Part shown: positions 30,210 to 64,000 of the stretch, piece after piece | How positions within the stretch are numbered: the first letter of the stretch is position 1 | Layout: every line of letters starts with the position of its first letter | Source of the DNA: Eledone cirrhosa | Lineage: Eukaryota | Direction: 5' to 3' | Assembly (NCBI GenBank): GCA_964016885.1 | Contig: OZ024742.1 | Span: forward strand, 305,660,001-305,724,000 | DNA length: 64,000 nucleotides | Program-made: the position numbers and the translations under genes | The notes under the pieces: generated by a model | The model's input: only the letters and a program-made list of their open reading frames with translations | The model's database searches: none | Told to the model about the DNA's origin: nothing

Positions 30210-30970
30210 AATTCAAATCCCGCCGGTGTTAAATAGGCCGACAAAATACAGTACCATTCAAATACGGGGGTCTATATATCCAAATTTGTATTCCTCCCTA
30301 AATTGCTGGCCTTGCGCCTAAATTAGATATCATTATTAGTATTAAAGGGCGGTGGATTGGCAGTATCGGTAGAGGGTCGGACGCCATGCTTTCCAGCATA
30401 GTTACGTCCCTTCACGATCTGAGTTCAAATCCCGCCGAGGTTGACTTTGCCTTTCATCCTTACGGGGTCGATAAAATAAAGTACCAGTAATGCACCGGGT
30501 AATTGCTGGCCTTGTGCCTAAAGTAGAAACAATTATTAGTGTTAAAGCGGTGGATTGATAGTATCGGTAGAGCGTCAGACACCATGCATTACAGCGTAGA
30601 GTTATGGCCATTTACGTTCTGAGCTCATATCCCGCTGAGGTTAACTTTGCCTTTCATCCTTATCGGGCCGATAAAATAAAGCTCCAGTAACATACTGGCG
30701 TAAATGCTAGCTTTATGCCTCATTAGAAATGATTATTAATATTGAGGTTAGTGGATTAGCTGAGTCGGTAGAATGTCGGACAAATTCTTAGCACTGTTTG
30801 ATCCGGCTCTTTGCGTCCTCAGTTCAAACCCCACCGTGGTTAAATATGTTATTCCTTAGCGGTCAACAAAATAAAGTAACTGTCAAGTACTGGGGTCGTA
30901 ATAATCGCCGACTATAGTCCTCGTAAAAAAAAGTGCAGACCTTATATTAAAATTAGAAATCGATATTATT
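30210..30970 (+). mobile_element. Head-to-tail SINE family 1 array (partial 30210-30340, 30348-30537, 30547-30740, degenerate 30746-30970)
   Basis: Repeated GGCGGTGGATTGGCAGTATCGGTAGAG heads, B-boxes and tails. Confidence 0.85.
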
Positions 30971-43830: not shown

Positions 43831-44128
43831 TGTTATTATTATTATTATTGTTATTATTATTCTCTGAGTATGTGTCTGTAAATTAAAGGTGGAAAACTGG
43901 GAGAGGGCACTTGCCCTGGTGGTCAGGGCCACTGTGGTCTTTTAATGGGCTTTCTCCACAAATGTCCCTTGGAAGTCTCCCCCCTATTGGGGAATTTTTC
44001 TTTGTTATTTTATTTCAACCTCTGTTTTTTTACACGCAGAAATGCCCTTTTGTACCGTCCTGTATTATCCTGTACTGTCCTTAATGTCTACTTTATGTGA
44101 ACCCTTGTGGTTAATAAAGAAAACATTA

Positions 44129-44176
<48 letters not shown>

Positions 44177-44248
44177 GAGATTTTCATGTTTTTGTTGGTC
44201 TTAATAACTATTAAATAAACACCTTTTCTCCTCCTCTTTCCTTTACAG

Positions 44249-44389
44249 AGTTCAACAAAAGCAAGTGAGAGTGGCATTGTAGATGACTTACAAGCTGTCA
44301 GAGATGATAACGACGATGATGATGATGACGAAGACGACAAACTGCCATCCGGACATGAATATGACACTGAAAGATTGAAAGCCTTTAAC
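44249..44389 (+). CDS. NOL4: Internal exon of a nucleolar protein 4 (NOL4/NOL4L)-like gene
   Basis: Polypyrimidine tract-cag acceptor and gtaagg donor. 141 nt, phase 0: SSTKASESGIVDDLQAVRDDNDDDDDDEDDKLPSGHEYDTERLKAFN. The acidic run plus ERLKAFN directly precedes [13 protein letters not shown] in NOL4 proteins. Absent from the ORF track. Confidence 0.88.
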
Positions 44390-44438
44390 GTAAGGGATTC
44401 GACAAAAGTTTTCTCTCTCTCCTCTCCCTTCTCGCTCT

Positions 44439-44530
<92 letters not shown>

Positions 44531-44534
<4 letters not shown>

Positions 44535-44638
44535 GGCTTCTACATGACTAGAACTGTTTCATTCGGGAGAAATCATCAGAAAGGGCTTCCTGATGATTTC
44601 TCCCGAATGAAATAGTTCTAGTCCTGTAAATGCCATTT
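44531..44638. mobile_element. Minimal fold-back element, family D: two back-to-back hammerheads
   Basis: + arm GGCTTC-CTGATGA(44590)-tttctcccgaat-GAAA-tAGttctagtcCTG-TA. - arm CTGATGA...GAAA-CAG...TG-TA-GAAGCC. (TA)n flanks. Confidence 0.75.
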
Positions 44639-46166
44639 CTATATTAAATATATATATATAAGCTATAAAACGAATTGTTTGAGGCAGTCTTAAAGCACTC
44701 AATGGTACGAAAAGTTAATACATTTTCCGTTCAGAGTTAACACATAAAGTTGTAAAAGTATGACGCTATGAACAAATCGACCAGATGTATGTGCCCATAA
44801 TATATCAAATATCAAATTACTTTACATTTCATAAACTATTCTCAAATAATAGTATATATGACCAATTTCTTTTTAAACATAGTTTAGTCAGAGGAAATGC
44901 ATAGCTTAAGAAATTTTCCATCGTCTCGGGAAATAGCGCTCGGAAGGAAGGAAGCTTACCCCAGAATGAAAATCTTGGTCGAATATCTGCTACAAATTGG
45001 ACTTCGGAAATTGCGCCGAAGATTGAGTTGGTGCTTTCAAAATAGGTGATGCATTAACCACGCCCACACCACCAATTCAATAATAGAAATATCCTCTCAG
45101 ACAATATTCTACATAATTTATGTCTAGCAAATTTCACTCATAAAGCTGTCACCGACTTATAGCAACACAGCCATACCAGCTTGTGTTACTCATAGTAGTA
45201 AAATAACGATTATATGTTTAGCAAATCATCTATGGTTTGGTTTCAAATCAGCACGCTAAGTAAAGAAATATAATTCTTTAATTTATTTTTCGCTGATGTT
45301 CTACACTTCACTGCCAGCGCAAAGCTATTTGCTAGTGAAACTGACCAAGAGTTCTACTGACAGATTTTGCCATTGATAAAAAATACATAGCAATATGTCC
45401 TTCTATCGCCACTCCAGTCACCTACTCCAGTGTTTCTCATTATATACGCTTTTTAGTATTTGAGATATAAAAACAAAAATGTTTACTAGTGGCAGATCGA
45501 TTGCTTCTCTATCTCTGTATATTATGCCTTCTAATTTCAGCACAAGGCCAGCGATTTGTGGGGCAGGTCAATTCGATGATATAGACCCCATTTTTTAATT
45601 GGTATCTTATTTTATAGACCTCGTCGGGATTCGAAATCAGAACATAGAAAGTAGCAATTAAATACTTGATCAGAGCTGGCTTAGGGTTCAATAGTAATAC
45701 TAACCAAAGATTCTAGCAGTTGGTTCTTACATACAATTGCTTGGGATAAATATTCATTTGCAATTGAAAATGCTTTAGACTTCAGCGTATCTCAGGTAGC
45801 TCACATGTTTTAGATAACTAAATCTAGTTTTCCTGACGATCGCTGCTTCATATCGTGAATCTGTGAAGCATGTTATGTGATTCATGAACGCCATCATAGT
45901 TCCATCACCGAAGACGCGTGGCTTAGTGGTTAGGGTACTCACATCACGTTCCTAAGCTACTAAGTTGCATTCCTACTGTTTCTTAAATGGGAGTTGAGTT
46001 CTTTACCAAATATCTCTTAAATTAGATAATCCAAATTTATTTACAAATAATTATTAAACTCACTTACTATATGAGCCTTTTTTCTCTGATTTCTAGAGAA
46101 AATTAAATAATAATTTCTGTATTTGTAATTTGAGATAATCTATCTCTTTCTCTTTCCCTATTGTAG

Positions 46167-46370
46167 ATGTTCGTCCGTTTGTTTGTCGATGAAAATCTCG
46201 ACAGGATGGTACCCATTTCTAAACAGCCTAAGGATAAAATTCAGGCTATATTAGAAGCATGTGACAGACAATTTCCGGAATTTCACGAACGATCCCGAAA
46301 ACGGATTCGGACATATTTGAAATCCTGCCGCCGAATGAGAAGGTCAAAGGAACAAAATGGCTGGGAACCG
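46167..46370 (+). CDS. NOL4: Internal exon of a NOL4/NOL4L-like gene (conserved helical domain)
   Basis: ttgtag acceptor and gtaagt donor. 204 nt, phase 0: [68 protein letters not shown], recognised as the NOL4 conserved block. Confidence 0.93.
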
Positions 46371-46849
46371 GTAAGTTTTTTTGTTTTTTTTCGTCATCAT
46401 TAGCACCACCACCACCACCACCACCCCCACCATCGCTACCACCACATTCATCATATCAACGTTACTGTCATCGATACAGCATAGCTCTCATCAACACACA
46501 ACGTTTTCTTAGTACGAGTTGTTAAGATAATCAATATTACGGTGATAAAGTGGAAAATATTAGGTGAATTAAATTTACGATCAAATTTCCATCCTCATAG
46601 TAAAAAAAAAAAAAAATTGTTTCGATTGAACATGCCACAATTTCCCGTTGCACCTCAATAAATTTGAACAGTTTCATGTGAACTTTAAATGAACTCTATA
46701 TTTTGAAGGAGGTGGTCGCCCTTCACTATTATGGTTATATATATAACCTACTTAGATGTACATCTTGTAATCTGTCTCTCTATTTCTCTCTTAATATATA
46801 TATATATATATATATTAATTAGAAAGTGAACAACACAATATATAACTAC

Positions 46850-46915
46850 TCCATTATCAAAGGTTTCTGGATCCTAGACAATATTCATATACGTCTGGAT
46901 CGTTCATCAGACAGA
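46850..46915 (-). ncRNA. Degenerate hammerhead candidate between TA tracts
   Basis: TCTGT-CTGATGA-acGATCCAGAC...GTCTaGGATCca-GAAA-cctttga-TA-ATGGA. Stem I relies on G-U pairs and stem III is poor. Confidence 0.4.
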
Positions 46916-46951
46916 AATGTCATCATATACATACATATATATATATACATA

Positions 46952-47008
<57 letters not shown>

Positions 47009-47015
47009 TTATATA

Positions 47016-47383
47016 ACAGAAAAAAGAGAATCAGTGTTGCGACGAAAGGAATTTATTGGACATATTACAATTGTATCTCGGGCGACCAACTCGAGGCACG
47101 ATCGATGTGGTGATCAAACCTGACTCTGAAATCGCGCGGTCCTCGGATACGGTCCTAGAATCGAGACGTATCCGAGGTCCGCGCGATTTCAGAGTCAGGT
47201 TTGATCACCATATCGATCGTGTCTCGAATTGGTCGCCCGAGAAATAATTGTAATATATCCAATAAATTCGTTTCGTCGCAACACTGATTCTCTTTTTTCT
47301 GTGATCTCATACTCTGCTCTTTGAGGGCATCGAGTGCTCATACGGCCTACCGCATAATGACGCTTTAAGCATCCAACACCAAT
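47016..47383. mobile_element. Fold-back element, family F
   Basis: 136-bp inverted arms 47016-47151 and 47167-47302, ~80 nt tail, (TA)n flanks. Arm consensus contains GAAA-CAATTG-TA (47241-47252). Confidence 0.85.
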
Positions 47384-47679
47384 TATATATATATAAAGAG
47401 AGAGAGATTGAAAGATAATATATCTCGGTAGGTTGTATAGTTATATACGAAAGTGAAAAATACACTGTAATTTCTGAATTTTTATATTATGCAAAAACTA
47501 TTTTTGATTTTTTTCTAATCTAAATATTAAATATGTACAACACTGAGACGACTTATCCTAGAAATTGTTTGTCATTTCCGGGCTTGTAACACACCATTTT
47601 TGTGACTTTATCTTGATTATATTTCTCCCCTTTATCATCTAATTTGTTTTCATTTTATATGTATATGGGTATATATATA

Positions 47680-47776
47680 CAGGGTGTCGCAAAAAATATA
47701 TACACACCTCAACAACATTCAATAAATATTGCCGTTACCGGTAATAAAAGTGTGTACATTTTTGTCGGACACCCTG
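47680..47776. mobile_element. Tc1/mariner-type MITE
   Basis: TA-CAGGGTGTC...GACACCCTG-TA with ~30 bp imperfect TIRs. Related copy at 55204-55291. Confidence 0.8.
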
Positions 47777-47789
47777 TATATATATATAT

Positions 47790-47867
<78 letters not shown>

Positions 47868-48207
47868 AAGTGCAAAGGGTAGCGGAACTCGGCAAATAGG
47901 AGTGAGAGGCTCCCAGTTGTTACAACATCTTTCTAAGAGAGGCAAACACTGAAAAAGAAAACCTGCGGCTTCAGAAGCATCCGATGATGTTGACCAGTTC
48001 TCCTTTTCGGGTAGTGTTTTCGATGCTGAGAGAGTGCGATTGGTCGAGTGCAAGGCATTTCCAACCTTCAAAGCACAGGCATTGCTTGTTCAGAATATGT
48101 TACAGGTTCGTGTGGCTGGCCGCACTAAAAGTACACCATTTTCTGTAATTTGACAAGCGATTGCAATAATCTTAGAAGAGTTTGCAGCCATCATATATAT
48201 ATATATA

Positions 48208-48408
48208 GGAAAATGTTTGACCCCGACGGCAGAGCTGGAGCCGTTTCGACGGCTATTTCTGGACATAATAGAGTCCAGAAATAGCCGTTGAAACGGCTTG
48301 TGCTCTGCCATCGGGGTCAAACATTTTCCTATTACTCACTCTTCTACCCTAAGTATTGAGTACTCTAGTGCGTTATGGTCCATCTGGTTCCTTACCACAC
48401 CTCCTTCG

Positions 48409-48464
<56 letters not shown>

Positions 48465-48526
48465 CGAAGTAGTCCAGAAATAGACGTCGAAACGGCTTGA
48501 GTTCTGCCGTCGGGGTGATACATTTT

Positions 48527-48530
<4 letters not shown>
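48208..48530. mobile_element. Family E element (48208-48410, opposite orientation) and an internally deleted copy (48463-48530)
   Basis: Homologous to 10862-11055 and separated by (TA)n. Confidence 0.85.
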
Positions 48531-48568
<38 letters not shown>

Positions 48569-48829
48569 TATATAGAGAGTTGAAAATGAACGAACAAAAC
48601 AATATATCTTTGAAACAGAAGAATGATTTCGCTGGTAGTTGGTGTACTCTTTAATAATTCAAATCTTTACATTAAGTCGTTATTGATATTAGTTCTGTTA
48701 ACTTCGCTGGAGAACTTTGTCTTTGTTAACATTCTGGGGGAACTTTCTCGCATCCGGCAGCGATTATCACACTAGTGTATTGTGGTATGTTCATAAACCC
48801 ACGCACGCACACACACACACACACACATT

Positions 48830-48906
<77 letters not shown>

Positions 48907-49070
48907 TCATAGAGGGGGATGGGGTTCTGGGAGTTAGCAAGGACTTACCCGAATTAGTATAAATAACTTTTAACTGTAAACACCAAACATCAGTGAAGTT
49001 ATTCTTCACTTTTTTCAAATATATCTTACCGTATCAAGGAATTTTCTTTATTTTCCACTATATATATATA

Positions 49071-49322
<252 letters not shown>

Positions 49323-52093
49323 TTAGGCAAGATTTGATGGCAGTTGATTTATTTCTAATGTGCAAACAAATTCTAAAGATATGTGTAGACAATACAATCA
49401 GGGAAATGGTTCTATGGATATGAAAGAAGTTAAAACAAGATAATCTTTTTTTTTCTTTCGCCAGCTGGCTTAATAGTTTAAATCACTGATGAGGCCCCAA
49501 TAATACAGACCACCCTTTGTATGTCTATTTGTATATTATTATAGTCTGTCTAAATAAGATATTATGTTTAGAGAGCTGAAATTGACATTAAAAATCGCAA
49601 GACATTACATAATGATTCTATTGCATTAGACATAATGCCGGTTTTATTTATTTATTTATTCACAAATTTATTTATTTATTCACAAATATATATATATTAC
49701 TAACACGTTAGCAGTGTTTTTGTTTAATACATTATCGGACAAACGTACAGAATTTAGCCGCTACTAAATATGTAAGCTAATTATAATTAGTTAAACACAT
49801 TCGATAGTCGTGAAAGCTGTCTTTTTGATTATTCTATTTGACTGTAGAGAAGAAGGATCAGCAGCGGTATAGTTTGAAAGGCTATTTCATTCTCATCAGT
49901 TCTCTATTTCTTAATCGATTACTGCGGAAATTTATTTAAACTCAGTATTAATAAACGCTTTATTAAACCAGGTACACTGATTTGAGGATATGTCAAATCT
50001 TAGATGTGTATTAACATCACCACCTGGTCTTTTGGTGTATTTCTCAGAGCACACTAGTGGCTCTATCACAACCACATCATTTTCCTTCAGTAGACACAAT
50101 TTGAAGGCGAGTGGGTTAGTTTTTAAGGTGTTAAACATACGATCATAATGTCAGGGTTTCAATTCCTGTACCGGGCTGTGCGTTAGTGTACTTGTACAAA
50201 ACCTTTCAGTTAACATTGTTCCATTATAATGTAGCTGATAATGAGTACCAGCAGTAGCTGGAAGTGTAATCCTACCATGAACTGGTGTCCTGTCCAAATA
50301 GGAGTCTTGTACTCTCAATCGTTTAACGCAAAAGAAACCAGAATAAACACTAGGAAAATTAGCTCCGGGCTAGAAACTGACTTTAGATTTTTGGACACCA
50401 TTTCCAAGATTAACCGTCTGAAGAAATGTGATGTGATTTTCTTACGTTTCCCAATATTAAGATAATTCCATTTAACACAACGCTCAACAACATATTTTCC
50501 ATTTACGAATACCACTAACCTTTTCGTTACCATATTTCCAATGAAAGGTACTGCTTATGGTTTTTAAATAATTTTGAAAATAACCAGGAAATTGGGAGGA
50601 TTTAGGTATATATTTAAACTATTCCTCATTTAGCTGCTGTATGAAACAAAGGATCGTATATTAAAATATGAATGTTTTTAGATATATATAAACACGTTAA
50701 AATAAACAGCATATAAATATCATAGAACCAGGATTGAAAAGGGTTAAAATTAAAAGAATGAATCATTTGAAGGGGCAGAATCTCTGCTTTTGCTTATACA
50801 TATCAATTAAACACAGTGAAATTAAACCCTAAACCTACTTAATATGATCTAAATTAAATCTCATACTGGCGTTTCTTAATCTGTAATTATTGATTCACCA
50901 GTTTCCACCACGGAGCCATCTATAATTGATTCCTCCCCCTCCTCCTCTACCTCGTTTTCCATTCTCCTAATCCACCTTCAACCTCATACCCCCTCCTTCC
51001 TCATCCACATATTTGACCTGTTCCTTTTATAAATCTTTTTCTTAATTGACTAATAGTTATTTCGATAGCTTACCACAACCTCCCCACACCACCACCACCA
51101 TCTCATACGCTCCTTCCACTATTATGATTACTACTTCTACCGCTAACAAATTCTGCTACCACCACCACCGCTACTACTTCTACTGGTGCTGCAAGTGGTT
51201 TTATTAGAGCTGCTTCTAATAGTGCTATTACTACAGCTACCTATCCCCGTCAGTTCACCAACACCACTACCACTACTACTACTATTACTGCTATTACTGC
51301 CGTTGACAGTACTGTTCATGTTGATGCTGTTACCACAAATCCTGCCACTACAACAATTATTTATGATTTGTATTATTAGAAAAAGTGCACCAAGGGAAAT
51401 TAGCAAGAAATTAATTGTGATTTTTAAAGAAATTATCTCCCTTTTTCCTTTGAATATTGCTAACGATTGCCGTTAGGTTTTTGTATTCTTTCTGCAACTT
51501 GGAGACACATTTTTATATACGCAACCGAGAGGAAGCCTCCATAAGGCTGGTTGCTTTGTTAGAAATAACACCTAGGACTTCCTCATAGTTCACCAGCTAC
51601 TGTACACCGAAAGCACATTCATAATACACTATGGCTGAGGCCAGTGTGCCTTTGAGCCCAGTTGTGTTCGTTTTGTTGAATCAGAGCAAATCTGAGTTTA
51701 AGCAACATCATCTATAACTTTTTACCACCTCTTCTACTATAAATCATTTTGAGCCCTTCATTTGTCAGGTTAATCTTTATTGGATGTTAATATGTTGCTT
51801 ATGAGAACCTCTCTGTAGGATATCTCATTGTAGACGCAAAGTAAGCTATGTCTGTGTTTCACAGGTTTGCTTCACAACATCATGGTTTAAAATATGTTCT
51901 AGCTGCGAAACAAGAGTATTCCAATATAGTCAGGACAGACCAAATACTTTTGAGTTGATTTAGGAGGTAAAACTTGCCTGAAAATTTGCCCCCCCCCCCC
52001 CCCTCTCTCTCTCTCTCTAATGCGTGCATTATTTCCTATCCACTCATTACCCATTGACTTTTTATTTTATTTTGCCTTCCGCAAAACCTCATG

Positions 52094-52147
<54 letters not shown>

Positions 52148-52268
52148 CCAACTTCCGATGAAAAGACTAGCACCAGAAACATAAAGGCTCTCTTCTAATT
52201 ACATCAAACTTTAAACTAATATACATTCATTGCATTGTATTGGTCACCTGTGTTTCTTTAACTTGTTG

Positions 52269-52309
<41 letters not shown>

Positions 52310-52374
52310 ATAGATAGATACATGTATACATACATACATACATACATACATACATACATACATACATACATACA

Positions 52375-52403
<29 letters not shown>

Positions 52404-52405
<2 letters not shown>

Positions 52406-53309
52406 CAACACGAAATACCTGATTCACAAAAGAGATAGGGATGCAGGAAAAACACCTAGATGTGATAACAAGTGCAGACTCTGCAGAATTAACATCGTAG
52501 ATTTCACCCATGTCACAAGCAGCTGTCCAAAGATGTCATCGCGGTACTATCTACCTATGAGGCACGATGTAGTGGCCAAAACACTGTACAATGCAATCCG
52601 TAGAAAAGATAGCCCCGACAATAAAAACATTAAAAGCTACAGCAATGTGGAAGACATACATATATATAATATGAAAGAGTACTGGTGGAATGTTCTAGTC
52701 AAAACCCCAATAAAATACAGGCATAACAGACCAGATATTATTATATGGGACAGGGAAAAGAAGGCATGCACAGTAGTGGAAGTTAGCTGTTCAGCAGATG
52801 CCAATATAATGTCAAAGATTAGCGAAAAGGAGAATATTTATGCAGAACTGATGAGAAATCTGCAGATACTCCACCCTGATTATGCCTTCAGATTTAAACC
52901 TGTGATTATTGGGACACTGTGATTATATGTTAGTAACTGCCTCAATACAAATCTTGAGAAGCTAGGCTTCACAGGAACAGAAAGAACACAACTAGTTAGG
53001 AAATTACAAGTACAATCCATTAATGGAACAGTAAAAATATGTAAAACATTCCAAAAATGTGCATCTAATAACTGCATATACACATGTACAGATACTAAGC
53101 ATATACACATGTACACATACAACTCAAAACATACACATCCACACATACAATAACATCCATATCTACACATGCATGCATGCATGCAGACATGCATACATAT
53201 CTATCTAGTTGATGTTGTGTAAAGTCCAATGAGAGAGTCTTGTGTCTATGTTAGAAACTGACTCTCTCTCTATTGGCAAACATTTGTGAAATTTTAAAAC
53301 CCAGAAGAA
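52404..53309 (+). mobile_element. 3' portion of an R4/Dong-like non-LTR retrotransposon (CCHC knuckle plus restriction-like endonuclease)
   Basis: KCRLCR..D.TH..SSCP knuckle, RHD, HNRPDIIIWD, EVSC and KENIY motifs. Premature TGA at 52920. (CATA)n on both sides. Confidence 0.88.
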
Positions 53310-54137
53310 CATACATACATACATACGAAGTTCAGGTTTCTCGGTTGCAAAGCTCTATGGTAAACAATATATACTAGATGAAAAATCATTAGTGATCTCA
53401 ATATCTGTTCCCTATACAACTCTTTCACTTAAGTCACAGCTAACAATGACTAGTCACAAACAAAAATTAGCTCTTGTGAAATGATGTAAAATTCAAATGT
53501 CTTCACAACCACATTAACACTGCCTTCTAAAAAGAAGGAAAAACGCATGACAACACTACTTCATTCCAAAGATATAACTGAGAAGATCTAAATAAGTTAA
53601 GGATAGATGTTATTTTAGTGTTATTTTTATTTTTTTTAAAAACTGCAAGACACGCTTTATATAAAAGGCAAAAATGATTTTTAATAATATATTTTGAACA
53701 AATAACTGGTCTCTATTTAATTAATTTACAATTACCTATTGCAATCCACAGCCTCATATATTGGACCAGGTAGCCATAATATCGATATGAAAATAATGAA
53801 ATTGTTATTGTTTGATTGCAAAAAGGCAGAAACTTAATCGTGAGTTGGAAGAGAGGGCGCATTTTGTTCCGGCAATCTGCGCTTTGAATCCCAAACTAAA
53901 CGATATCAAATTTGCTTCCATAGTTTCAAAGTTGATACGTGCAATTAGTGGAAATGTTAGAGCGTCGGACTTGATGCCTCACGGTATCTCTTCCAGCTAT
54001 GAGTGTTCTGAGTTCAAATCACACAGTCTAATATTGGGTCGAAAGCCTGACTTAACAAATATATTTACCTTTCAAACACTCAGCCTATGCGTATGTTCAT
54101 AAGCGTAGTTGTGTAACCTATACGTCTGAATATGAGA

Positions 54138-54175
<38 letters not shown>

Positions 54176-54178
54176 ATT

Positions 54179-54204
<26 letters not shown>

Positions 54205-54209
<5 letters not shown>

Positions 54210-54602
54210 ATATTAAATAAATGGAAACTATATTTCTAAAACCATATTTATTTTATTATATATATTTCAAGGGTACCAAGACACATTGATACGCTTTCAT
54301 CAGATAAAATACAAAATTTGTTTTATAACTAGAGACATACCCATGAAAATCATACCTTATCGGTTGGAAATTCACTGGATAGTCTTAAAAGTTAAAACAA
54401 ACTTTGTATTTTATCTGATGAAAGCGTATCAATGTGTCTTGGTACCCTTGAAATATATATCATAAAATAAATATGGTTTTATAAATATAATTTCCATTTA
54501 TTTAATATCATTGAATATTACTCCAATAAACTGTTGAGTGCGCTAAATCAATTATAAACATTTATATTTGTTGGACTTCCAACAAATTAAATACCCCTTC
54601 TA

Positions 54603-54604
<2 letters not shown>
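54205..54604. mobile_element. Fold-back hammerhead element, family B
   Basis: Arms ~54205-54331 and 54389-54513, ~57 nt spacer, ~90 nt tail, (TA)n flanks. Confidence 0.9.
54407..54469 (+). ncRNA. Minimal type-I hammerhead ribozyme, family B (mirror copy on - strand, 54249-54311)
   Basis: TATTTTAT-CTGATGA-AAGcGTATCAA-tgtgtc-TTGGTACcCTT-GAAA-TATATA-TC-ATAAAATA. Confidence 0.85.
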
Positions 54605-54653
<49 letters not shown>

Positions 54654-54665
54654 ATATATATATAT

Positions 54666-55070
54666 CTAAGGCGGGTAAAATTCCCGAGATCCATGGACGA
54701 GTTCTCTCCAGTGGTCCCTGTCCCTCATTAGTGCTGCCATATCCTGCGTCTCCAACAGACCGGTGTCTGTCCTTAGGGCATCAACATACGTTAACCTTGG
54801 TCTTCCTCTTCCAGTGTGTCCATGCAGGGGCTCCCACAGGGGCACTGAGTGCAGTATCAACTCTGGATGTCAGTGAGCATGTCCAGCTAACCTCAGTCTC
54901 CTCTGTGTCACTTTTGAGCTGACTTTGGGGAGGCTCCCATACAGCTCTGAGTTTTTCTTCCTCAGTGTAAACTGTTTAATGTTCAGAACCATCCTCAGCA
55001 TTCTCGTGTAGCACCCATCCACCATCTGAGTGAGTTTCAGCAGCACTGATGAGGCGGATCTTCATGTCTT
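54666..55070 (-). mobile_element. 3' end of an RTE-X-like LINE with (TA)n tail
   Basis: DGCYTRMLRMVLN, LRLAGH and LWEPLHGHTGRGRPRLTYVDAL...MRDRDHW. Confidence 0.8.
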
Positions 55071-55203
55071 CACATATATGTATGTATATATATAACAAAG
55101 AAAGTGTGGTAAAAAACCAGGTGAACCATAACGCACCAGAGTACTCGATACTTAGGGTAGTAAAGCGGGTAAAGAATCAGGACTCTTTTCACATATATAT
55201 ATG

Positions 55204-55291
55204 CAGGGTGTCCCCCAAAAATGTATAAACACTTTGATTAGCTGTACAGGAAATATTTATTAGAATGTTGTATACATTTTTGGAACACCCT
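55204..55291. mobile_element. Tc1/mariner-type MITE, second copy
   Basis: CAGGGTGTCCCCCAAAAATGTATA...TATACATTTTTGGAACACCCT. Confidence 0.7.
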
Positions 55292-55734
55292 ATATATATA
55301 TATATATATTCATACTCTATAATTCACTAGATAGTTCGGATGATTGAACATCTGGAATACACGTTCGTCAAAACTGACATTTCATTCATTCATTCACCTA
55401 CCCATAAACACTAAGCAGCACTAGAGACAAATTAAATGCATGCACACGTACACATGCGTACGCACACACGCACACAGAAATGCACGCTCACAAATACTCA
55501 TGCTTGCACACACATTGCACGCCGCAGTCCACATATAGTGCAGTTTTGAAACACACTTCACTAGTTATAGTTGGTTCTCAGGCATCTACTGCTATTGCAT
55601 TAATAGACAAACACCACGTGATTGTTCATCCACTGACTGCTTTGCTTATCATCGCGTATATAAATACATGTAAAACAATTACAAACACATATACACATGC
55701 AATATCTTGTATTTATAAATGTATATATATATAA

Positions 55735-55801
<67 letters not shown>

Positions 55802-57279
55802 CATACAAATAGATACACCTTGGAATAGCATAAACACGGTATACTCATATGTATAGTGATGTAGATATAATAATTTGTAATATACATCTCTGTTACTCTC
55901 TCTCTCTCTCTCACTCGTTCTGTGTCTCTCTTTACATACACACAGACATGAATATGTTGGTATATATATATATATATATGTTGGTATATATATATTTTTG
56001 TGTGTATGTGTGTGAGTGTGTGTGTATGTGTTTATGTGTACATATACATACACGTGTGTGACATTCTGTGTAACATATGGTGTTGTTTTACTATATATTC
56101 CTTCTCAAAGAGTCATATTTTACGTCCCGACTTTACTGGTTCCGTTTTTACACAACTGTCCCCTCCTCTTCATACACTTAATACAGCGGAGAGGAACGTG
56201 TCTTGCTGCCTGTTCTAATTCCATTCCAAGTTTTTGAGGCTGCCAAATCGATTTTACCATTTCCTTTGTTAGTTAAACTGTGTCCTATTTTTAAAGCATT
56301 TTTCCCTGGTGAAGAAGATAACTAAAGCAGGAAGTTCTGCAAGGTGGTGGAGGAATTGACGGTGGAGTGGCAAGGAATGATGAATGAAGATGGAGGGAGC
56401 TTTAGGCGGCGTGGGGCGTGGTAGGGATGGGAGGGCTAACGGTGGTGGATTTTGTTCACGACGTTCATTCTTTAAGTGGGCGGGTGATGGTGCTGTTGGT
56501 GGTGGTACACTGGTATTCATGAGGGTGAATGAAGGAGTTGATTGTGATGGTGGTTTTCGTAGTTGTGGTTGTGTTAGTGTTAGTGGTGCAAGTGCTGTCG
56601 GTGAAGATATGACGGATGCGAATGTGTAGTTGGTGTGGGTGTTGTAATGAATGAATGAACGAGGAACAGCAGTAGGAGTAAAAAATGACGTAAGAGACCA
56701 AACTATGAGGAACAACAAATCTTTTGACGTCGGCGATGACGATTAAAAAGCAGAAAACCAGTATGAGAAGTAAAGAGAGTAAATACGAGAAAAATGTAAT
56801 TGTTATCTTTTAAACAGATACAAGTTCAACATTTTGTAAGCGGAGTATCTCAGATGAAATCTCTATAGTATTCGGTTCAGTTTCTTTGCATTCTGTGTTC
56901 AAATCCCACCAAAGTCAACTTTATCCTTCAAACTTTAAAACCAATAAATCATGAGACCTTTCTCTACTCAAATCAGTTCGACTGGACTTTAGTTATCCGA
57001 TACACAATCATAGCATCCTTCTTAGGTTAAAAATCGATTGTTGTTTTTTTTAGAGTGGTTGGCTATCATCGATTCATTCAATCTCAGCATATTACTGGTA
57101 CTTATTTCACTGACATTAGTTCGGTCAAAATCAGAATTTACCTACGTAGGTGAATGAAATAAATATTGCCTTAAGACGATATTGTTTAAGTCAACTTAAA
57201 AATGATAGAATAAAAAAAGAAGTTTTGTTTAAGTTGCTATAATTATGTTGCTACCTCACTACCACTATTTATATTGGAG

Positions 57280-57467
57280 GGCGGTGAATTGGCAGTATCG
57301 GCAGGGGGTCGGACGCCATGCTTTGGCGCATAGAGTTACGACCCTTGCCATTCTGAGTTCAAACCCCGCCGAGGTTAACTTTGCCTTTCATCCTTACGGG
57401 GGTCGATAAAATAAAGTACCAGTAATGCACTGGGATAATTGCTTGCCTTGTGCCAATAGTAGAAACA
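57280..57467 (+). mobile_element. SINE family 1 with 15-bp target-site duplication
   Basis: ACTATTTATATTGGA at 57264-57278 and 57468-57482. Confidence 0.92.
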
Positions 57468-58424
57468 ACTATTTATATTGGACTTAGGTAATTTGTTTTC
57501 TTTCCTCAATCTGGCGTTAGTGTGTTTCTTAGGGGAAACTTCTTGAGTATTTTAATGATAAGAGCCATAGTTCTAGCATGTCCCAATTTTTTGCTGTGTC
57601 AGGAGGTATGTTTTGAACTCAAAGCACTCTGAGGCGGAACAGATAGCGTAAGGTTTCCCGTATAACACTCAACCAACTCTGGCAACATCTTATCGTTGTT
57701 ACTTATTTAGGATTACATTATTTTTTCTGTGTTTCTACTTTCCAAGACAATATGGAGTAATTTGAAGGATATTTGGCTATCATTTCTAGTTTGTTGAGTG
57801 ACTTTTTAAATCATTCTCTGGCTTGTAGGGGTTAGCATATATTCCTATAATACATCATAGATGTGAATGGAATTTTGATGGAAGGTGCAGAAGGGCGTTT
57901 AACAGTCTATACCGCGTTTTAAGAAGAAAATTTAAAAGAAAGAAAACAGCGATTAAGGATGATGGCTTGATGAGGGTTAGCGACAGATCAGAACATCTGT
58001 CTCTCTCTAGTCTCTCCCCTCTCTCTCGTTGGCTGAAGGTTTATTCTCTTGGTATTCTGGTTTATTATAATGGAGTCTCGCGTGGGCGTGAAATCGTGAA
58101 GAGGTTTTGTGATTTAATTAATTTTTCGATGTTAGTCTCCTCTATCGTTATGATGGGTTGAACGCATGACTAATTATAAAGCTGGTGTTTTGATAATGTT
58201 GTATTAGAATTGAAGAGAGACAGACAGAGAGAGGGAGAGGGACAGAAGGAGTGGGAGGGAGGGAGAGAGAGAAAATTAGCGAGAGAAAGTTAGTGAAATA
58301 AAGAAAGTGTAAGACAATGTGTATGTGTGCAGGAATTCTGCTCAAATTCTCTACAATCATTGATGTAATGTTATACACAATAAACACAAACACAAACACA
58401 CACATACACTCATATATATAATAC

Positions 58425-58500
<76 letters not shown>

Positions 58501-59279
58501 GGAGGATGTGTGTGAGTGCGTTTAGATTTTGGTTTAAACTTGCATATACGTTTCTAATATTTTTCCAGAAGTATGTACTGAGTACAGTTTCTACCACGTT
58601 TATATATATATATATACGCATAGGTTTGCATATACACGGGAGATAGACTAACACTGTGTTGCTAAACTTGGTATTTAGGAATTACCAGTGGTCCATACCA
58701 AGATTTTGACAGTCAATAAAACTCTCATGAATTGCGTTAACCACTTTGACAGGCTTTTTTTTTTGCCTCGATAGACCAGCAGAAACTGTACTGAACATAA
58801 TTATCTTCACCCCAATCTTTCACTCTACCGCCTACCTTTTAACACTACTTTTACACAATGCCGATGAAATAATATTCAATTTATCTGTTGCACCTGATTA
58901 ATTGTATTTAATATTACCTAGAAGCCTCTAGAAATAAGTAGTGAATCATTTTCCTTTGCCCCCCTCTCTCTCTCTCTCTTAAAATATATGAAATATACAT
59001 CATGAGAAAATCGGAGTAGCAACGCAGGATGTAGCAGCTGCATAGAAGAAATAATTGTACTCTGTATACTTGCTTCTCTTGATTTTGTTTCAAAATGCCC
59101 ACAACGGAAATAGATAAATATAAATTAGCCAGATGTAATATATATGCATGTATCACATAATCTTAAGATTAACTATAGGCAGAGTCGTAAGAACGTCGGA
59201 TAGAATGCTGTGCAGTATTTGTTCTAATTCTCTTCATTCTGAGTTGAAATCCCGGTGAGATCAACTTTTCCTCTCATCG

Positions 59280-59343
<64 letters not shown>

Positions 59344-59493
59344 CATTTTGAGTATATATTGGTTGTATACCAACACCTCAGTATGCAGATTGGAGCACTA
59401 GACGAAATGCGCAGGTTGGTTTGGTTACTCCGGAGTAATGTCAAATAAAATAAAATAAATAAGTCAGATGTTTAAAATTTAGCTTCGTTTATT

Positions 59494-59548
59494 ACTGCTA
59501 TATATATTTCGGTGACAGCCATCTTTGGCTGTGACCTCATCAGGCAGT
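59494..59548 (-). ncRNA. Hammerhead ribozyme, family A (CUGAUGA core)
   Basis: Reverse complement: ACTGC-CTGATGA-GGTCACAGCCA-aaga-TGGCTGTCACC-GAAA-TATATA-TA-GCAGT. Confidence 0.85.
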
Positions 59549-59742
59549 CCGAATTAGTGTGGTATAGGCAAGTACATATGTTGTTGAGATGTATAACCTT
59601 GTCAATACTCTGATATGCCCAGTTCCTGGTTGGGTTGTTATTTCACTGAGGAACTGGAATCATATGATTCCATTTCCTCAGAGTATTGACAAGGTTATAC
59701 ATCTCAACAACATATGTACTTGTCGCTACCACACTAATTCGG

Positions 59743-59797
59743 ACTGCCTGAAGAGGTCACAGCCAAAGATGGCTGTCACCGAAATATATATAGCAGT
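59743..59797 (+). ncRNA. Hammerhead ribozyme, family A (CUGAAGA core)
   Basis: ACTGC-CTGAAGA-GGTCACAGCCA-aaga-TGGCTGTCACC-GAAA-TATATA-TA-GCAGT. Confidence 0.85.
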
Positions 59798-60114
59798 AAT
59801 AAACGAAGCTAAATTTTAAACATTTGACTTATTTATTTTATTTTATTTTATATATATATATATATGACTAAATTGAAACTTCAAAATCATTATCTCTTTT
59901 TTTACATAGGAAATAAATTTCTACAATATTGAGTGTTCACTCGGTTAATATGCGAAATAATTCGGTATTTAAAACATATTCTGAGAGAACAAGATTAGAA
60001 GCAATAAATACCTCTATGTTCTGTTGGTGCAACCTATTTTGATAGATGGAAGAATTTTGAAAGTTGTTGGCTTTAAAATCACTGGCTGTAGGTTTGCGCC
60101 GCTAACTGTGCATT

Positions 60115-60712
60115 GTATCGTTATATAGATGTGTGATGTTACACTGCTCCAGAGTTGTATATTTTCATATCACCATATAGATGTGCTATTACTCGATTGA
60201 ATGGTTGCCTGTTTGATGTTGTATTGCCATATAGATGTGTGATATAACAATGCTCCATAGCTGTAACCAGTTCCATCGCTATATATGTCTGTGATATTAC
60301 ACAGCTGCATAACTGCCTGTGCGTTGTTGCATCGGCTCCATAGATGTCTTTGGGTATTTGTATCGTTATTTAGATGTGTGATATTGCACAGTTGAATAGC
60401 TGTCTATGTTTTGTTGCGTCGCCATATATGTGTGTATTATTATAAGGGTGGTGGATTGACAGTATCAGTAGAGGGTCGGACGCCATGCTTTGCAACATAG
60501 AGTTACGTCCTTTTACGGTCTGATTTCAAATCCTGCCGAGGTTAACTTTGCCTTTCACCCTTACGGGTGTCGATAAAATAAAGTACCAGTAATGCACTGG
60601 GATAATTGTTGGCCTTGTGCCCAAAATAGAAACAATTATTAGATGGTTGTCTCTGGGTAGTTATTTCACTGTATAGATGTGTCTTATAACACAACTGCAT
60701 ACCTGTCTGTCA
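60115..60712. repeat. Degenerate ~52-56 bp minisatellite interrupted by a SINE
   Basis: Recurrent ATATAGATGTGTGATATTACAC-like unit, about 8 copies. Confidence 0.7.
60446..60640 (+). mobile_element. SINE family 1
   Basis: Full-length unit. Confidence 0.88.
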
Positions 60713-62418
60713 CTTTTAAGCCTGTTGACAGCAGATATGACCAATCTATCTGCAATTACGTACAATTCTTCATAGACATGCACACTAATCATTGGTTGAA
60801 AAGAATTTACTTAAATTAATTTTCCAACGAATTAAATCAGTAAGCGCGAGTTTGCATCAGTCTCACGAAAGGAATATAGTTTTACCATTTTCATGAGTGG
60901 TTCACTATATACTAATTCACGCTCGAAGAGAAAAACTTCCAATAGATGTAAAGAACATGGTATACGATAAGGTGAACGTAGTTTTTAAAGTTTCAGTTAA
61001 TTCCATCCAGTGACTTATGTCCCTTTATCATACTTAGATCTCACTCTAGATTCTATTTTGCTTTTTGTTCTCCGGGGTTAGAAAAGCAAGCATCGGTAGC
61101 ATATCACCGTCTGTTTAAGCAGATATTACCTTTTCAATATATATCAGCCCTTATGGAATTATCATTTGTTATTCTTCTTATTATTATTATGTTCATGATG
61201 ATTTTGACTCTAACACAACAGGATTAATAACGATTTTTTTACATTGAAATGAAGCCAATTTTCATCGTTGGTCGTGTATAATTGATTAATTCTACCTCAA
61301 CCTTTATTTTTCTTATTCACTCAACACCGAGCTTATTTATGTCAAAAACGTTTCGTATGTGACCATCACTTCTTTATTTTCAGATATAGTGCATCTAGGA
61401 CTACTTTATCGAATGTCGCATTTATTTTTTAAAGAGAGTAAAATGCGATTTAAGAAAGATTTGGTTGCCATCTCTAGCAGGTCAAGTGACCACAAAGAGA
61501 CTCTCTCGTTATTTAGATGTTAGTATATTATGGAAATATAAAAAGCAAAACCAATCTTGGGGAGATTTTAAAATCCGAAACATAAAGGAACAAAGTACGT
61601 ACTTGACTATTTCAAATACGATGCAGCAAGTCATGCAGTCAAACAAATAGACATGCATTGTCATCTTTCTAGTCAACATCATTCCACAATCCAGCTTGCC
61701 ACACTCTAATACTAATAATACTGATACAAATACTAATTACTAACCGCCATAAACTGCACCAACGGCATTTAAACGACTCCGCCCACTAAATTACATATCT
61801 CTTTAAATATGACCACATCACACCACTCTACACCATTCACAGTCACACACATCTCACCATCGCCACCACTACCTAATCTTACCGATTTTATTTTAAATAT
61901 TTAATTTTAACTTGAATTTATTTATTTTATTTTTTCTTTGGTGAAAACGGAAAGAGAGTGGAAGGGAGAGAGCGGTAGGGGGTGGAATGGATTGAGAGAC
62001 TGAAAGAGTAATTCTGCGAAAGAAAGAAGTCTTTAGGACATATCTGTTAGATTTATTCACTTTATCAAAGACTTACTATAGTGAATAGTACACTTTTACC
62101 GCCCTCTCCTACAAATTTTGCACCGCTTAATATCTCGCCTAGCTTATATCCATTTTTGCTTTCCCCCTCCTTTGTCATTCTTCATTTTTACCATCTTCAC
62201 TTCGTTACTTCTTTCCCCCTTCTCCTTTTATCATTGTATGAAGGAATGGTAGACAAGTAAAGAGAGACTACGCATGCGTTGATCTGTATATCCACACATA
62301 CACACACCCACATACACACTTCCACTGCATCATAAAATTATAAATGTACTTTTATCGAGAAGTGTATTTATGAACGGATAACACACACACACACTCATAA
62401 ACTCACACACACACACAC

Positions 62419-62502
<84 letters not shown>

Positions 62503-63294
62503 TATACATGTATGTGTGTATATATAAATATACTATTTTATGTACATATTTGTATAAACTCATGAATTGCACATGTTATTATAAATACATATTCATTGTA
62601 CGTTAATAATGTATAATGAGTGTGTTCGCACTTGTTTCCATTTATGTTAATTTCTACTGATTTTCCGTATTCCAATGCATGTATGTATTTGCTTCAGTGT
62701 AGTTTGTATAAGATCTATAAACTACCATTTTAAAGTGATGCATTCGCATAATATAAACAAATGCTCGCACAGATACGCATGTATAGATTTCCACTAAACA
62801 CATAAGGTTTCTTTCGTCACAAATATAATAAAAGAGTTATTTATTTCATCGGCACAGTGAGAAGCTGCGTGGCTTAGCGCTTAGGTTGTCGAATTAACAC
62901 TCAGAAAGGTCCTAATTTCGATTATAGGAACGGGTGTCGTGTCGTGTCCTTGAACAAGACACTTTATTTTACTTTGCCCCAGTTAACTCAGATGGTTTTA
63001 TCGGTCTTTGCCTTTGCTTGGGACAATATCGTTGGCGTGAAAAAGTGAAACTGGCATGGATGTGCTTAGGCTCCCACATTGGAGGAGTGTGTTCCATGTG
63101 CAAACCCAGGGTCTGTAATGCCTGGAAGAATCACTTATGCATTGTATGGCTTAAACAACCTTAAAAGGGAATTTGAAATAGATATGTGCAATAATTGGTT
63201 GAGTTAAACATATTAGAGTATGGTTTTGTTCTAGCAATAACTTGTGATATTATTTTTGAGCCACTGGTCAGTTATGATCGGGTTAACAAATAAT

Positions 63295-63487
63295 TGTTTC
63301 TACGTTAGGCACAAGGCCAGCAATTACCCAGTGCATTACTGGTACTTTATTTTATCGACCCCGTAAGGATGAAAGGCAAAGTTAACCAAAGTTAACCGGG
63401 ATTTGAACTCAGAATGGCAAGGGCCGTAACTCTATACGTCAAAGCATGGCGTCCGACCCTCTCCCAACACTGCCAATCCACCGCCCT
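63295..63487 (-). mobile_element. SINE family 1 with ~18-bp target-site duplication
   Basis: ATCGGGTTAACAAATAAT at 63277-63294 and 63494-63511. Confidence 0.9.
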
Positions 63488-64000
63488 TAACAAATCGGGT
63501 TAACAAATAATGGAATGCAATCATGCCGTGATGATCTCGTCATAAAAGGCAATGCTTAAAATGGTAACAACTCCTCTTTCCACTTTTTCGCCATCTGGTC
63601 TCTTTCCTTCCTTGTTGCTGAGAGTTGGGGAACATGGATAATTGCACCATTGCTAAATAATACTATTTGTGTATGATTATCATCGGGAAACAGTGCTGTG
63701 GTTGAGTTCCGAATCCTCATCTGATCATTTTTAGGAAACCGTCTCTCTAGCTGCAGCTCATTTGCCTTCATCGAAAGGATGATGACATAGGCCACTTGAA
63801 AAGTGGTTAAGGAGTCTCATTTACCTCGGATTTTAAATCAGAGTGATCTTTCTTCTGTCAGTCAAGATGATCTTTGTATATATCCACGCATTCATATTTT
63901 TTGTTTTTTGGTTTCATCTTTTATCAGCGATGGCCCAACATTGTGACAGGTTGTACTGGGTCACATGTTACCAGAATCACTCGCGAGCAACTTGACATAT

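What the first reader, a model, noticed from the sequence alone, without database searches (positions are those of the whole stretch)
59494..59797. Two intact opposite-strand hammerheads differing only at the free N7 core position
Seen: the 55-nt motifs at 59494-59548 (-) and 59743-59797 (+) appear identical except CUGAUGA versus CUGAAGA. Versus the + arm of copy 1, the only other change is in the stem II loop. Known: N7 and loop II tolerate substitution in minimal hammerheads. Inference: this pattern fits selection on catalysis in the source element, though the number of changes is small. The TATATA stem III palindrome implies dimer-dependent cleavage.
Basis: partly seen in the sequence, partly recalled or inferred. 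Interest (0 to 1): 0.7.

Follow-up and report, generated by a model that had tools for sequence, protein, structure and literature searches.

The report
Penelope stub with two hammerhead ribozymes
This is a short, mirror-image, likely dead copy of the end of a common Penelope-type jumping gene; each arm carries a predicted self-cutting RNA and the one-letter difference between them is likely a chance mutation, but tiny sister copies that stop exactly at the predicted cut suggest the ribozyme likely does cut in the animal's germ line.

Summary
Observation confirmed: two type-I hammerheads on opposite strands, identical except N7. They are the head-to-head arms of a ~505-bp stub of a Hydra-clade Penelope-like retrotransposon inserted in (TA)n. 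One end carries a ~98-nt tail and the other lacks it; the arm is the 3' end of an RT + GIY-YIG element. At least 3,493 such arms occur in this genome. Opposite-strand hammerhead pairs in Penelope-like elements are published.

The N7 change is not evidence of selection. It is private to one arm, and genome-wide N7 (52 copies), A6 (33) and G5 (58) are hit about as often. Selection does show between source subfamilies: shared changes at 1 of 48 constrained sites against 16 of 76 flank sites (p=0.002). The two arms cannot form a cleaving dimer with each other; they are predicted to pair into a ~170-bp duplex.

One addition: in 9 of 31 tiny sister insertions both arms stop within 1 nt of the predicted cut (about 2% expected), a likely footprint of germ-line cleavage. 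This scan noted such footprints before in other genomes. Verdict: new family of a known kind.

The parts
59284..59343 (.). Left target microsatellite (TA)19 followed by (GA)11; the (GA)n likely grew at the tail-end junction
   Evidence: (CT)n after the tail end also in L005, L006, L008, L021, L031, L035, L047
59345..59442 (-). One-sided ~98-nt tail: 5' leader of the next unit, lying between the two inferred reverse-transcription start sites
   Evidence: matches L031/L032/L033; in tandem copies L036, L050, L052 it runs on into the ORF, with the ATG 257 nt after the hammerhead start in L050 and L052
59443..59667 (-). Left arm: 3' end (pLTR) of the element, 5'-truncated about 119-123 nt upstream of the hammerhead
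59494..59548 (-). Type-I hammerhead, CUGAUGA (private U7 at 59539); predicted cut between 59499 and 59498
59660..59667 (.). TCATATGA palindrome at which the two arms are joined head to head; lies in a family-wide truncation hot spot
59678..59681 (+). TCAG direct repeat at which 36 nt (a hairpin arm) are missing from the right arm
   Evidence: comparison with L009; hairpin predicted
59660..59850 (+). Right arm: tailless pLTR end
59743..59797 (+). Type-I hammerhead, CUGAAGA (family majority); predicted cut after 59792
59784..59791 (+). Self-complementary AUAUAUAU (positions 15.1 to 16.1): unstable 2-bp stem III as a monomer, 8 bp in a double hammerhead
59849..59865 (.). Right target microsatellite (TA)n; TA microhomology with the short end

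Best explanation
This is a 5'-truncated, head-to-head insertion of a Penelope-like retrotransposon with Hydra-clade motifs in a (TA)n tract, likely made when both ends of a nicked target primed reverse transcription at two fixed sites ~98 nt apart on an uncut element RNA, so the ribozyme was likely copied twice and is now likely decaying neutrally. SHOWN: the arm is the 3' end of an RT + C-terminal GIY-YIG element; the tail is the leader of the next unit; one tailed plus one tailless end is the rule in the family; rare substitutions are uniform; shared substitutions avoid the ribozyme. INFERRED: (1) two separate priming events rather than fold-back of one cDNA; (2) both cDNAs ran to an RNA 5' end about 119 nt upstream of the hammerhead (possibly the pLTR transcription start) and were joined at the TCATATGA palindrome, the right one skipping 36 nt between TCAG repeats; (3) U7 arose at or after insertion; (4) in source elements the ribozyme is selected and cuts a minority of RNAs in the germ line, probably as a double hammerhead between same-sense pLTRs or with help from the element's protein; (5) this stub itself is not cut, because a read-through transcript would pair the arms.
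For: Element identity: GIY-YIG E=8e-4, below Pfam's gathering score; 814-aa open frame in L044 with DKT, GLYRDD, CNCRNPESC, YIG, CKLC and a final CRH; RWK in L042 and L046; RT-like Atlas clusters, score 0.96; 57 relatives, best 50% identity. These match the Hydra-clade description in PMC8557442. End rule: 21 of 22 head-to-head pairs (one automatic mislabel, L078, corrected by eye) and 45 of 48 tiny ones have one tailed and one tailless end. In 8 of 19 mixed pairs the tailless arm reaches further 5' than the tailed arm, so each arm holds sequence the other lacks. PMC11167929 shows cutting and extension of both strands and two internal RT starts bracketing the tail. 30 arms of the 93-copy set stop 101-119 nt upstream and none at 120-137. 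Selection. Cut footprint: 9 of 31 main-subfamily tiny insertions have both arms within 1 nt of the cut, against 1.5-2% for simulated joins; their flanks differ. Arms pair: forcing the active fold costs about 78 kcal/mol.
Against: No cleavage assay and no RNA data. N7 does show a surplus of transversions over A6 (35 vs 12; total 52 vs 33, p=0.05), and an older subfamily has U7 (L062, L012), so some N7 tolerance in sources is real. This window's insertion alone also fits fold-back copying, since the right arm holds nothing absent from the left. Core-breaking changes shared by both arms of single insertions (C3U in L017; A6U and A6G pairs; an A9C pair) show either that dead-core RNA gets inserted or that arms convert each other. 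4 of the 9 cut-site joins (L164, L188, L197, L199) involve a 2-nt GC overlap, and the null assumes independent, uniform breaks. PMC11167929 found no RNA-seq reads ending at the cut in Anolis. Clade placement rests on motifs, not on a tree. The 93-copy set is not a random sample.
Confidence: 0.8

Rival explanations
1. One reading: the two arms are live ribozymes kept intact by selection here, and they cleave as a dimer.
For: Both cores are intact and the single change is at the free position; N7 transversion surplus over A6.
Against: 5 differences in 171 nt, 1 in the ribozyme where 1.6 are expected; core and flank decay at equal rates in copies; opposite strands cannot share one RNA in sense, and the arms are predicted to pair into a ~170-bp duplex; at least 3,493 near-identical arms make intact copies the norm.
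Confidence: 0.05
2. The inverted arms come from self-priming or fold-back at the central palindrome, as proposed for rotifer Penelope elements, not from two priming events.
For: Palindrome TCATATGA at the junction; PMC3846280 reads such junction palindromes as self-priming on an antisense template; this insertion's right arm is a subset of its left arm.
Against: In 8 of 19 pairs each arm holds sequence missing from the other (e.g. L032: tail on the short arm, 3.5 kb on the tailless arm); the strict one-tail rule.
Confidence: 0.12
3. The pile-up of arm ends at the predicted cut is a by-product of microhomology (GC overlap, TATATATA against the (TA)n target), not of ribozyme cleavage, and the invariant TATATATA is kept as a TATA box or target-pairing sequence.
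For: 15 of 30 (TA)6-GCAGT matches are truncations that TA microhomology explains equally well; 4 identical ACTG-microhomology joins recur; PMC3846280 describes a TATATATA box in a rotifer pLTR.
Against: Blunt joins with no overlap at 0/-1 (L177, L182) and joins with filler at 0/0 and 0/+1 (L164, L188); simulated joins restricted to microhomology of 2 nt or more still give only about 2%; stem I covaries across families.
Confidence: 0.25
4. A non-autonomous retrozyme or a MITE that happens to carry hammerheads.
For: Short, non-coding, inverted arms, many copies.
Against: No tandem direct units; asymmetric ends; the arm continues into a 3' UTR and an RT-endonuclease ORF in longer copies.
Confidence: 0.03

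Closest known systems
Hydra clade of Penelope-like elements, including Hydra-1_Obim and Penelope-13_HM (Craig et al. 2021, PMC8557442; passages, section 11 and supplement part 2 of 59 read)
   Same: RWK, DKT, CxCx5C linker, CxxC and CxH around the endonuclease E and N, C-terminal GIY-YIG, (TA)n target, hammerhead near the 3' end. Penelope-13_HM is listed with a 5'-truncated inverted copy and a hammerhead on both strands.
   Different: A different family: the listed Hydra-1_oBim hammerhead has another sequence and stem III (ACCA/UGGU, here AUAUAUAU). The unit is about 4.2 kb by my estimate (about 916 aligned residues, ~1.3-kb 3' UTR, 257-nt leader) against 'generally <3 kb'. The tail is ~98 nt against the 30-40 bp given for PLEs. 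The sequences themselves were not compared.
[quoted passage not shown]
   Same: Type I, long stem II, short stem I, small palindromic stem III, proposed dimer cleavage. The paper reports dual motifs 100-700 bp apart on opposite strands and thousands of solo motifs from truncated PLEs.
   Different: This family pairs G10.1 directly after A9, with a C-C mismatch in stem II. That paper had no in vivo evidence and saw only low in vitro cleavage; here a genomic pile-up of arm ends at the cut is added.
Poseidon element PAc of Anolis (Frangieh et al. 2024, PMC11167929; parts 1-2 of 4 read)
   Same: Two internal RT start sites bracketing the tail, both strands cut and extended, AT-rich target, unprocessed RNA as the main template.
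   Different: Other clade. There the ORF starts inside the hammerhead; here the ATG lies 257 nt downstream of it. That paper found no RNA-seq ends at the cut.
Metazoan non-LTR retrozymes (Cervera and de la Pena 2020, PMC7229834, passages; Li et al. 2026 preprint 10.64898/2026.07.22.740005, part 1 of 5)
   Same: Type-I hammerhead, non-coding, related to PLE pLTRs.
   Different: Those are same-strand tandem units of 150-450 bp; this is an inverted two-arm stub of a coding element.

Membership tests
Type-I hammerhead | Core CUGANGA, GAAA, UH with stems I and II | tested here: met
   stem I forms 4 or more of 5 pairs in 36 of 40 hand-picked cross-family hits, slid controls 0-3 of 40
Type-I hammerhead | Stable stem III as a monomer | tested here: not met
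   probability 0.006, +2.7 kcal/mol; an 8-bp intermolecular duplex gives -3.2 kcal/mol; as in PLE minimal hammerheads
Type-I hammerhead | Self-cleavage | not testable with these tools
   indirect only: cut-site pile-up of arm ends
Type-I hammerhead | Match to an Rfam hammerhead model | tested here: not met
EN+ Penelope-like element | Single ORF with RT and C-terminal GIY-YIG endonuclease linked to the arm | tested here: met
   L032, L044, L052; Pfam GIY-YIG E=8e-4, below gathering; no Pfam RT hit; Atlas and homologues are RT-like
EN+ Penelope-like element | pLTR in partial tandem, inverted 5'-truncated copy, one-sided tail | tested here: met
Hydra clade | RWK and DKT motifs | tested here: met
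   RRMRWKAF in L042 and L046; ADKTNN in L044
Hydra clade | CxCx5C linker; CxxC and CxH flanking E and N; no CCHH | tested here: met
   CNCRNPESC, CKLCLNE, final CRH; no cysteine pair between the GIY- and YIG-like halves, judged by eye
Hydra clade | (TA)n target | tested here: met
Hydra clade | Groups with Hydra families in an RT tree; no IFD, no CxC domain | not tested
   published protein sequences were not on hand as tool sequences
Non-LTR retrozyme | Same-strand tandem units, each with a hammerhead | tested here: not met
MITE | Symmetric terminal inverted repeats unrelated to a retroelement | tested here: not met
   asymmetric ends; the arm is the retroelement's 3' end

The most novel reading that the evidence does not exclude
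The family records both fates of its RNA in germ-line DNA: most insertions are twin-primed copies of uncut RNA, while a small class of two-armed stubs ends exactly at the hammerhead cut. That would be fossil evidence that a Penelope ribozyme with an unstable stem III cuts in vivo and that both target ends prime on the same element RNA; the ribozyme would be selected for a step before insertion (for example trimming the 5' end 207 nt ahead of the ATG), not for insertion itself.
Probability: 0.55. Interest if true: 0.55.

Novelty: new member of a known kind. Interest (0 to 1): 0.33.

Why it matters
The pair itself is ordinary. What matters is that the role of hammerheads in Penelope-like elements is still open: PMC8557442 calls it unclear, and PMC11167929 found cleavage dispensable for insertion in vitro and saw no cut ends in RNA-seq. 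This young, abundant family gives three usable handles: purifying selection confined to source lineages, a one-tail rule in 66 of 70 two-armed insertions, and a predicted cut position with a genomic pile-up. Together they make in vivo cleavage and twin priming directly testable. It is also a caution that an intact ribozyme in a young transposon copy is not evidence of selection on that copy.

Tried and rejected
Rfam: no hit at gathering scores in the window, and only chance miRNA/sRNA hits in 59300-60000.
Sequencing runs: no RNA holder listed. Laying four contig sets of unknown kind from one study covered the unique flanks but could not resolve this copy from its sisters, so it says nothing on U7 or on expression.
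Pfam gave no RT hit on L044 or L046.
U7 as a multiplying sublineage that includes this copy: rejected, because U7 sits on several unrelated backgrounds and the partner arm has A7.
(TA)n-GCAGT stubs as evidence of cutting: set aside, because TA microhomology explains them (15 truncated of 30; the other 15 are stem III slippage).
(142 matches, 100 listed) was read by eye only, as a lead.
In the cut-site count, 17 of 48 insertions were left out: 9 of a subfamily with a 15-nt insert for which I had no template, 7 rows of a subfamily with a 7-8-nt insert (two of them one duplicated locus), and 1 tandem duplication. Over all 48, 10 have an arm at the cut and 9 have both arms within 1 nt.
No host gene was evident among frames of 110 aa or more in 44000-64000 (read by eye, not scanned).
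No target-site duplication can be read in (TA)n.
Five literature searches listed no paper on this family or on cut-site pile-ups in PLE insertions; listings only, and subscription papers are not held.
Searches of earlier findings by this sequence and near this place were empty.

Full report
OBSERVATION. Both fold with stems I and II (z -3.1 and -3.4). The cut after 59792 follows standard hammerhead numbering (recalled). They lie in inverted arms 59438-59613 and 59678-59853; over 171 aligned nt the arms differ at 5 positions, one inside the ribozyme. Rfam has no hit.

WHAT IT IS. The window lies in a 3.0-Gb, microsatellite-rich animal genome; an octopus is likely, but that is my inference and was not tested. 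The right arm matches 43 places among 40 scored candidates at 94-100%. Longer copies extend upstream through a ~1.3-kb 3' UTR into a coding region. A 991-nt RT piece has 2,107 first-look candidates. L044 has an 814-residue open frame with DKT, GLYRDD, a CNCRNPESC linker, a GIY-YIG-like endonuclease, CKLC and a final CRH; L042 and L046 add RWK. Pfam gives GIY-YIG at E=8e-4, below gathering, and no RT hit. The Atlas returns RT-like clusters at 0.96, and 57 relatives reach up to 53% identity. These motifs and the (TA)n target are the stated diagnostics of the Hydra clade of Penelope-like elements (PMC8557442 section 11). Its supplement lists an octopus Hydra family with a different hammerhead, and Penelope-13_HM with an inverted truncated copy and hammerheads on both strands (part 2 of 59 read). 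Opposite-strand pairs 100-700 bp apart were described in PMC4209133. In tandem copies the arm runs through the ~98-nt tail into the next unit, with the ATG 257 nt after the hammerhead start. The insertion therefore reads: (TA)n(GA)n, tail, left arm, TCATATGA junction, right arm lacking 36 nt between TCAG repeats, (TA)n.

HOW IT FORMED (inferred). 21 of 22 head-to-head pairs have one tailed and one tailless outer end (the script scored 19 of 21, L078 was corrected, and L047 comes). So do 45 of 48 tiny two-armed insertions found independently. In 8 of 19 mixed pairs the tailless arm reaches further 5', in 4 the tailed arm does, and 7 are equal. The first class cannot arise by fold-back of one cDNA, the model of PMC3846280 (passages). 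It fits two priming events, one from each target end, at two RNA sites, matching the two internal starts and two-strand extension shown in vitro for a Poseidon element (PMC11167929). 30 arms of the 93-copy set stop 101-119 nt upstream of the hammerhead and none at 120-137, which suggests an RNA 5' end there; a transcription start is a guess, prompted partly by an earlier AI note. Both arms of this insertion reach that point, and both span the cut site intact, so the template was uncut or re-ligated.

SELECTION. 3,493 arms match the exact flanks of the core. Single changes number 52 at N7, 33 at A6 and 58 at G5. N7 vs A6 gives p=0.05, with a transversion surplus at N7 (35 vs 12, counted from the listings) and equal transitions (17 vs 21). 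In 93 copies from 66 insertion clusters (best BLAST hits, RT hits, N7-pattern hits and the window; not random; pattern-fixed columns dropped for pattern hits), rare changes hit the core in 11 of 942 cells and the flanks in 93 of 6,507 (p=0.66). Changes shared by 4 or more insertions occupy 16 of 76 flank sites but 1 of 48 constrained sites (C11.1 to U, which leaves a G-U pair; p=0.002), plus one loop II site. U7 occurs on several subfamily backgrounds; here only one arm has it. An older subfamily carries U7 (L062, L012). Across families, a loose pattern gives 48,502 hits against 124 reversed. In 40 hits hand-picked for diversity from the first 100 listed, 36 form at least 4 of 5 stem I pairs that the pattern did not ask for (slid controls 0-3 of 40; cross-family control 120 of 754), with U-A, C-G, G-C, G-U and A-U swaps, and N7 is U in 30, A in 9, G in 1. 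Against a strict need for catalysis at insertion: core-breaking changes shared by both arms exist, though conversion between arms could explain them.

DIMER. Monomer stem III has probability 0.006; AUAUAUAU is self-complementary and gives an 8-bp duplex of -3.2 kcal/mol. Dimer or protein-assisted cleavage is therefore plausible for same-sense tandem pLTRs, as in PMC4209133 (low activity) and PMC11167929 (protein-assisted). It is not available to these two arms: a transcript of either strand holds one sense ribozyme behind its complement, and forcing the active fold costs about 78 kcal/mol.

FOOTPRINT OF CUTTING. L041 and L051 begin at the cut, which prompted a search. (TA)n-preceded stubs are uninformative. 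Among the 48 tiny two-armed insertions, 10 have an arm ending exactly at the cut and 9 have both arms within 1 nt. In the 31 of the main subfamily (17 left out, listed under Tried and rejected) the counts are 9 and 9, against 1.5-2% for both-within-1 and 2-8% for one-at-cut in enumerated joins, with or without a microhomology requirement. The 9 have different flanks. Two are blunt 0/-1 joins without overlap; 4 involve a 2-nt GC overlap; 3 end at +1/+1 around short filler. The null assumes independent uniform breaks. The simplest reading is that both cDNAs ran off the 5' end of a ribozyme-cut RNA. Such stubs are a very small share beside at least 3,493 arms with the core region present. This scan noted the same footprint in other genomes; those are unchecked AI notes and not independent support. 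My searches (listings) showed no paper reporting it.

VERDICT. The family-level data (one-tail rule, source-only selection, cut-site pile-up) bear on an open question and set the interest at 0.33. Supplement files of PMC8557442 beyond part 2, which I did not read, may hold consensus sequences close to this family.

Noticed in passing
window 19905-20417: Second insertion of the same family (subfamily with a 15-nt insert after the cut), tailed left and tailless right; its minus-arm ribozyme has a stem I G>U at 20113.
   Followed up: yes
window 54249-54311(-) and 54407-54469(+): Inverted pair of hammerheads of a different family (8-bp AU-rich stem I, U7, same GAAA-TATATATA); the + arm ends in C17. 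The same family often flanks this one in other loci (L005, L010).
   Followed up: partly
G000 genome-wide: 48,502 matches to a hammerhead pattern with the same TATATATA stem III across many families whose stems I and II differ; the pattern demanded that sequence, so its invariance is untested. It could double as a TATA box or target-pairing sequence.
   Followed up: partly
L043, L045, L047, L049, L050, L052, L053: An amplified subfamily carries U11.1 (G-U at the base of stem II) and includes tandem, ORF-linked copies.
   Followed up: partly
L005, L006, L008, L021, L031, L035, L047; window 59322-59343: A (CT)n run often appears between the tail end and (TA)n, suggesting slippage at priming that seeds new microsatellites.
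   Followed up: no
L044:1354-3795: The ORF carries two long low-complexity inserts (after the RT thumb and inside the linker) that lengthen it beyond typical Hydra proteins; poly-G and poly-C runs there break most copies.
   Followed up: no
L004 (about 800-1490 on its minus strand), L010, L052 flanks: Insertions sit inside (TA)n tracts of, or next to, other Penelope-like elements with GIY-YIG remains (nested targeting).
   Followed up: no
window 57278-57473, 60445-60640, 63397-63489, 30299-30743: A dispersed ~200-bp SINE-like repeat, tandem at 30.3 kb.
   Followed up: no
window 52314-52922: Open frame resembling the zinc-knuckle and restriction-like endonuclease end of a non-LTR retrotransposon (recalled resemblance, not scanned).
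   Followed up: no
window 60095-60405 and 60643-60708: Five diverged ~66-nt direct repeats around a TAGATGTG core.
   Followed up: no
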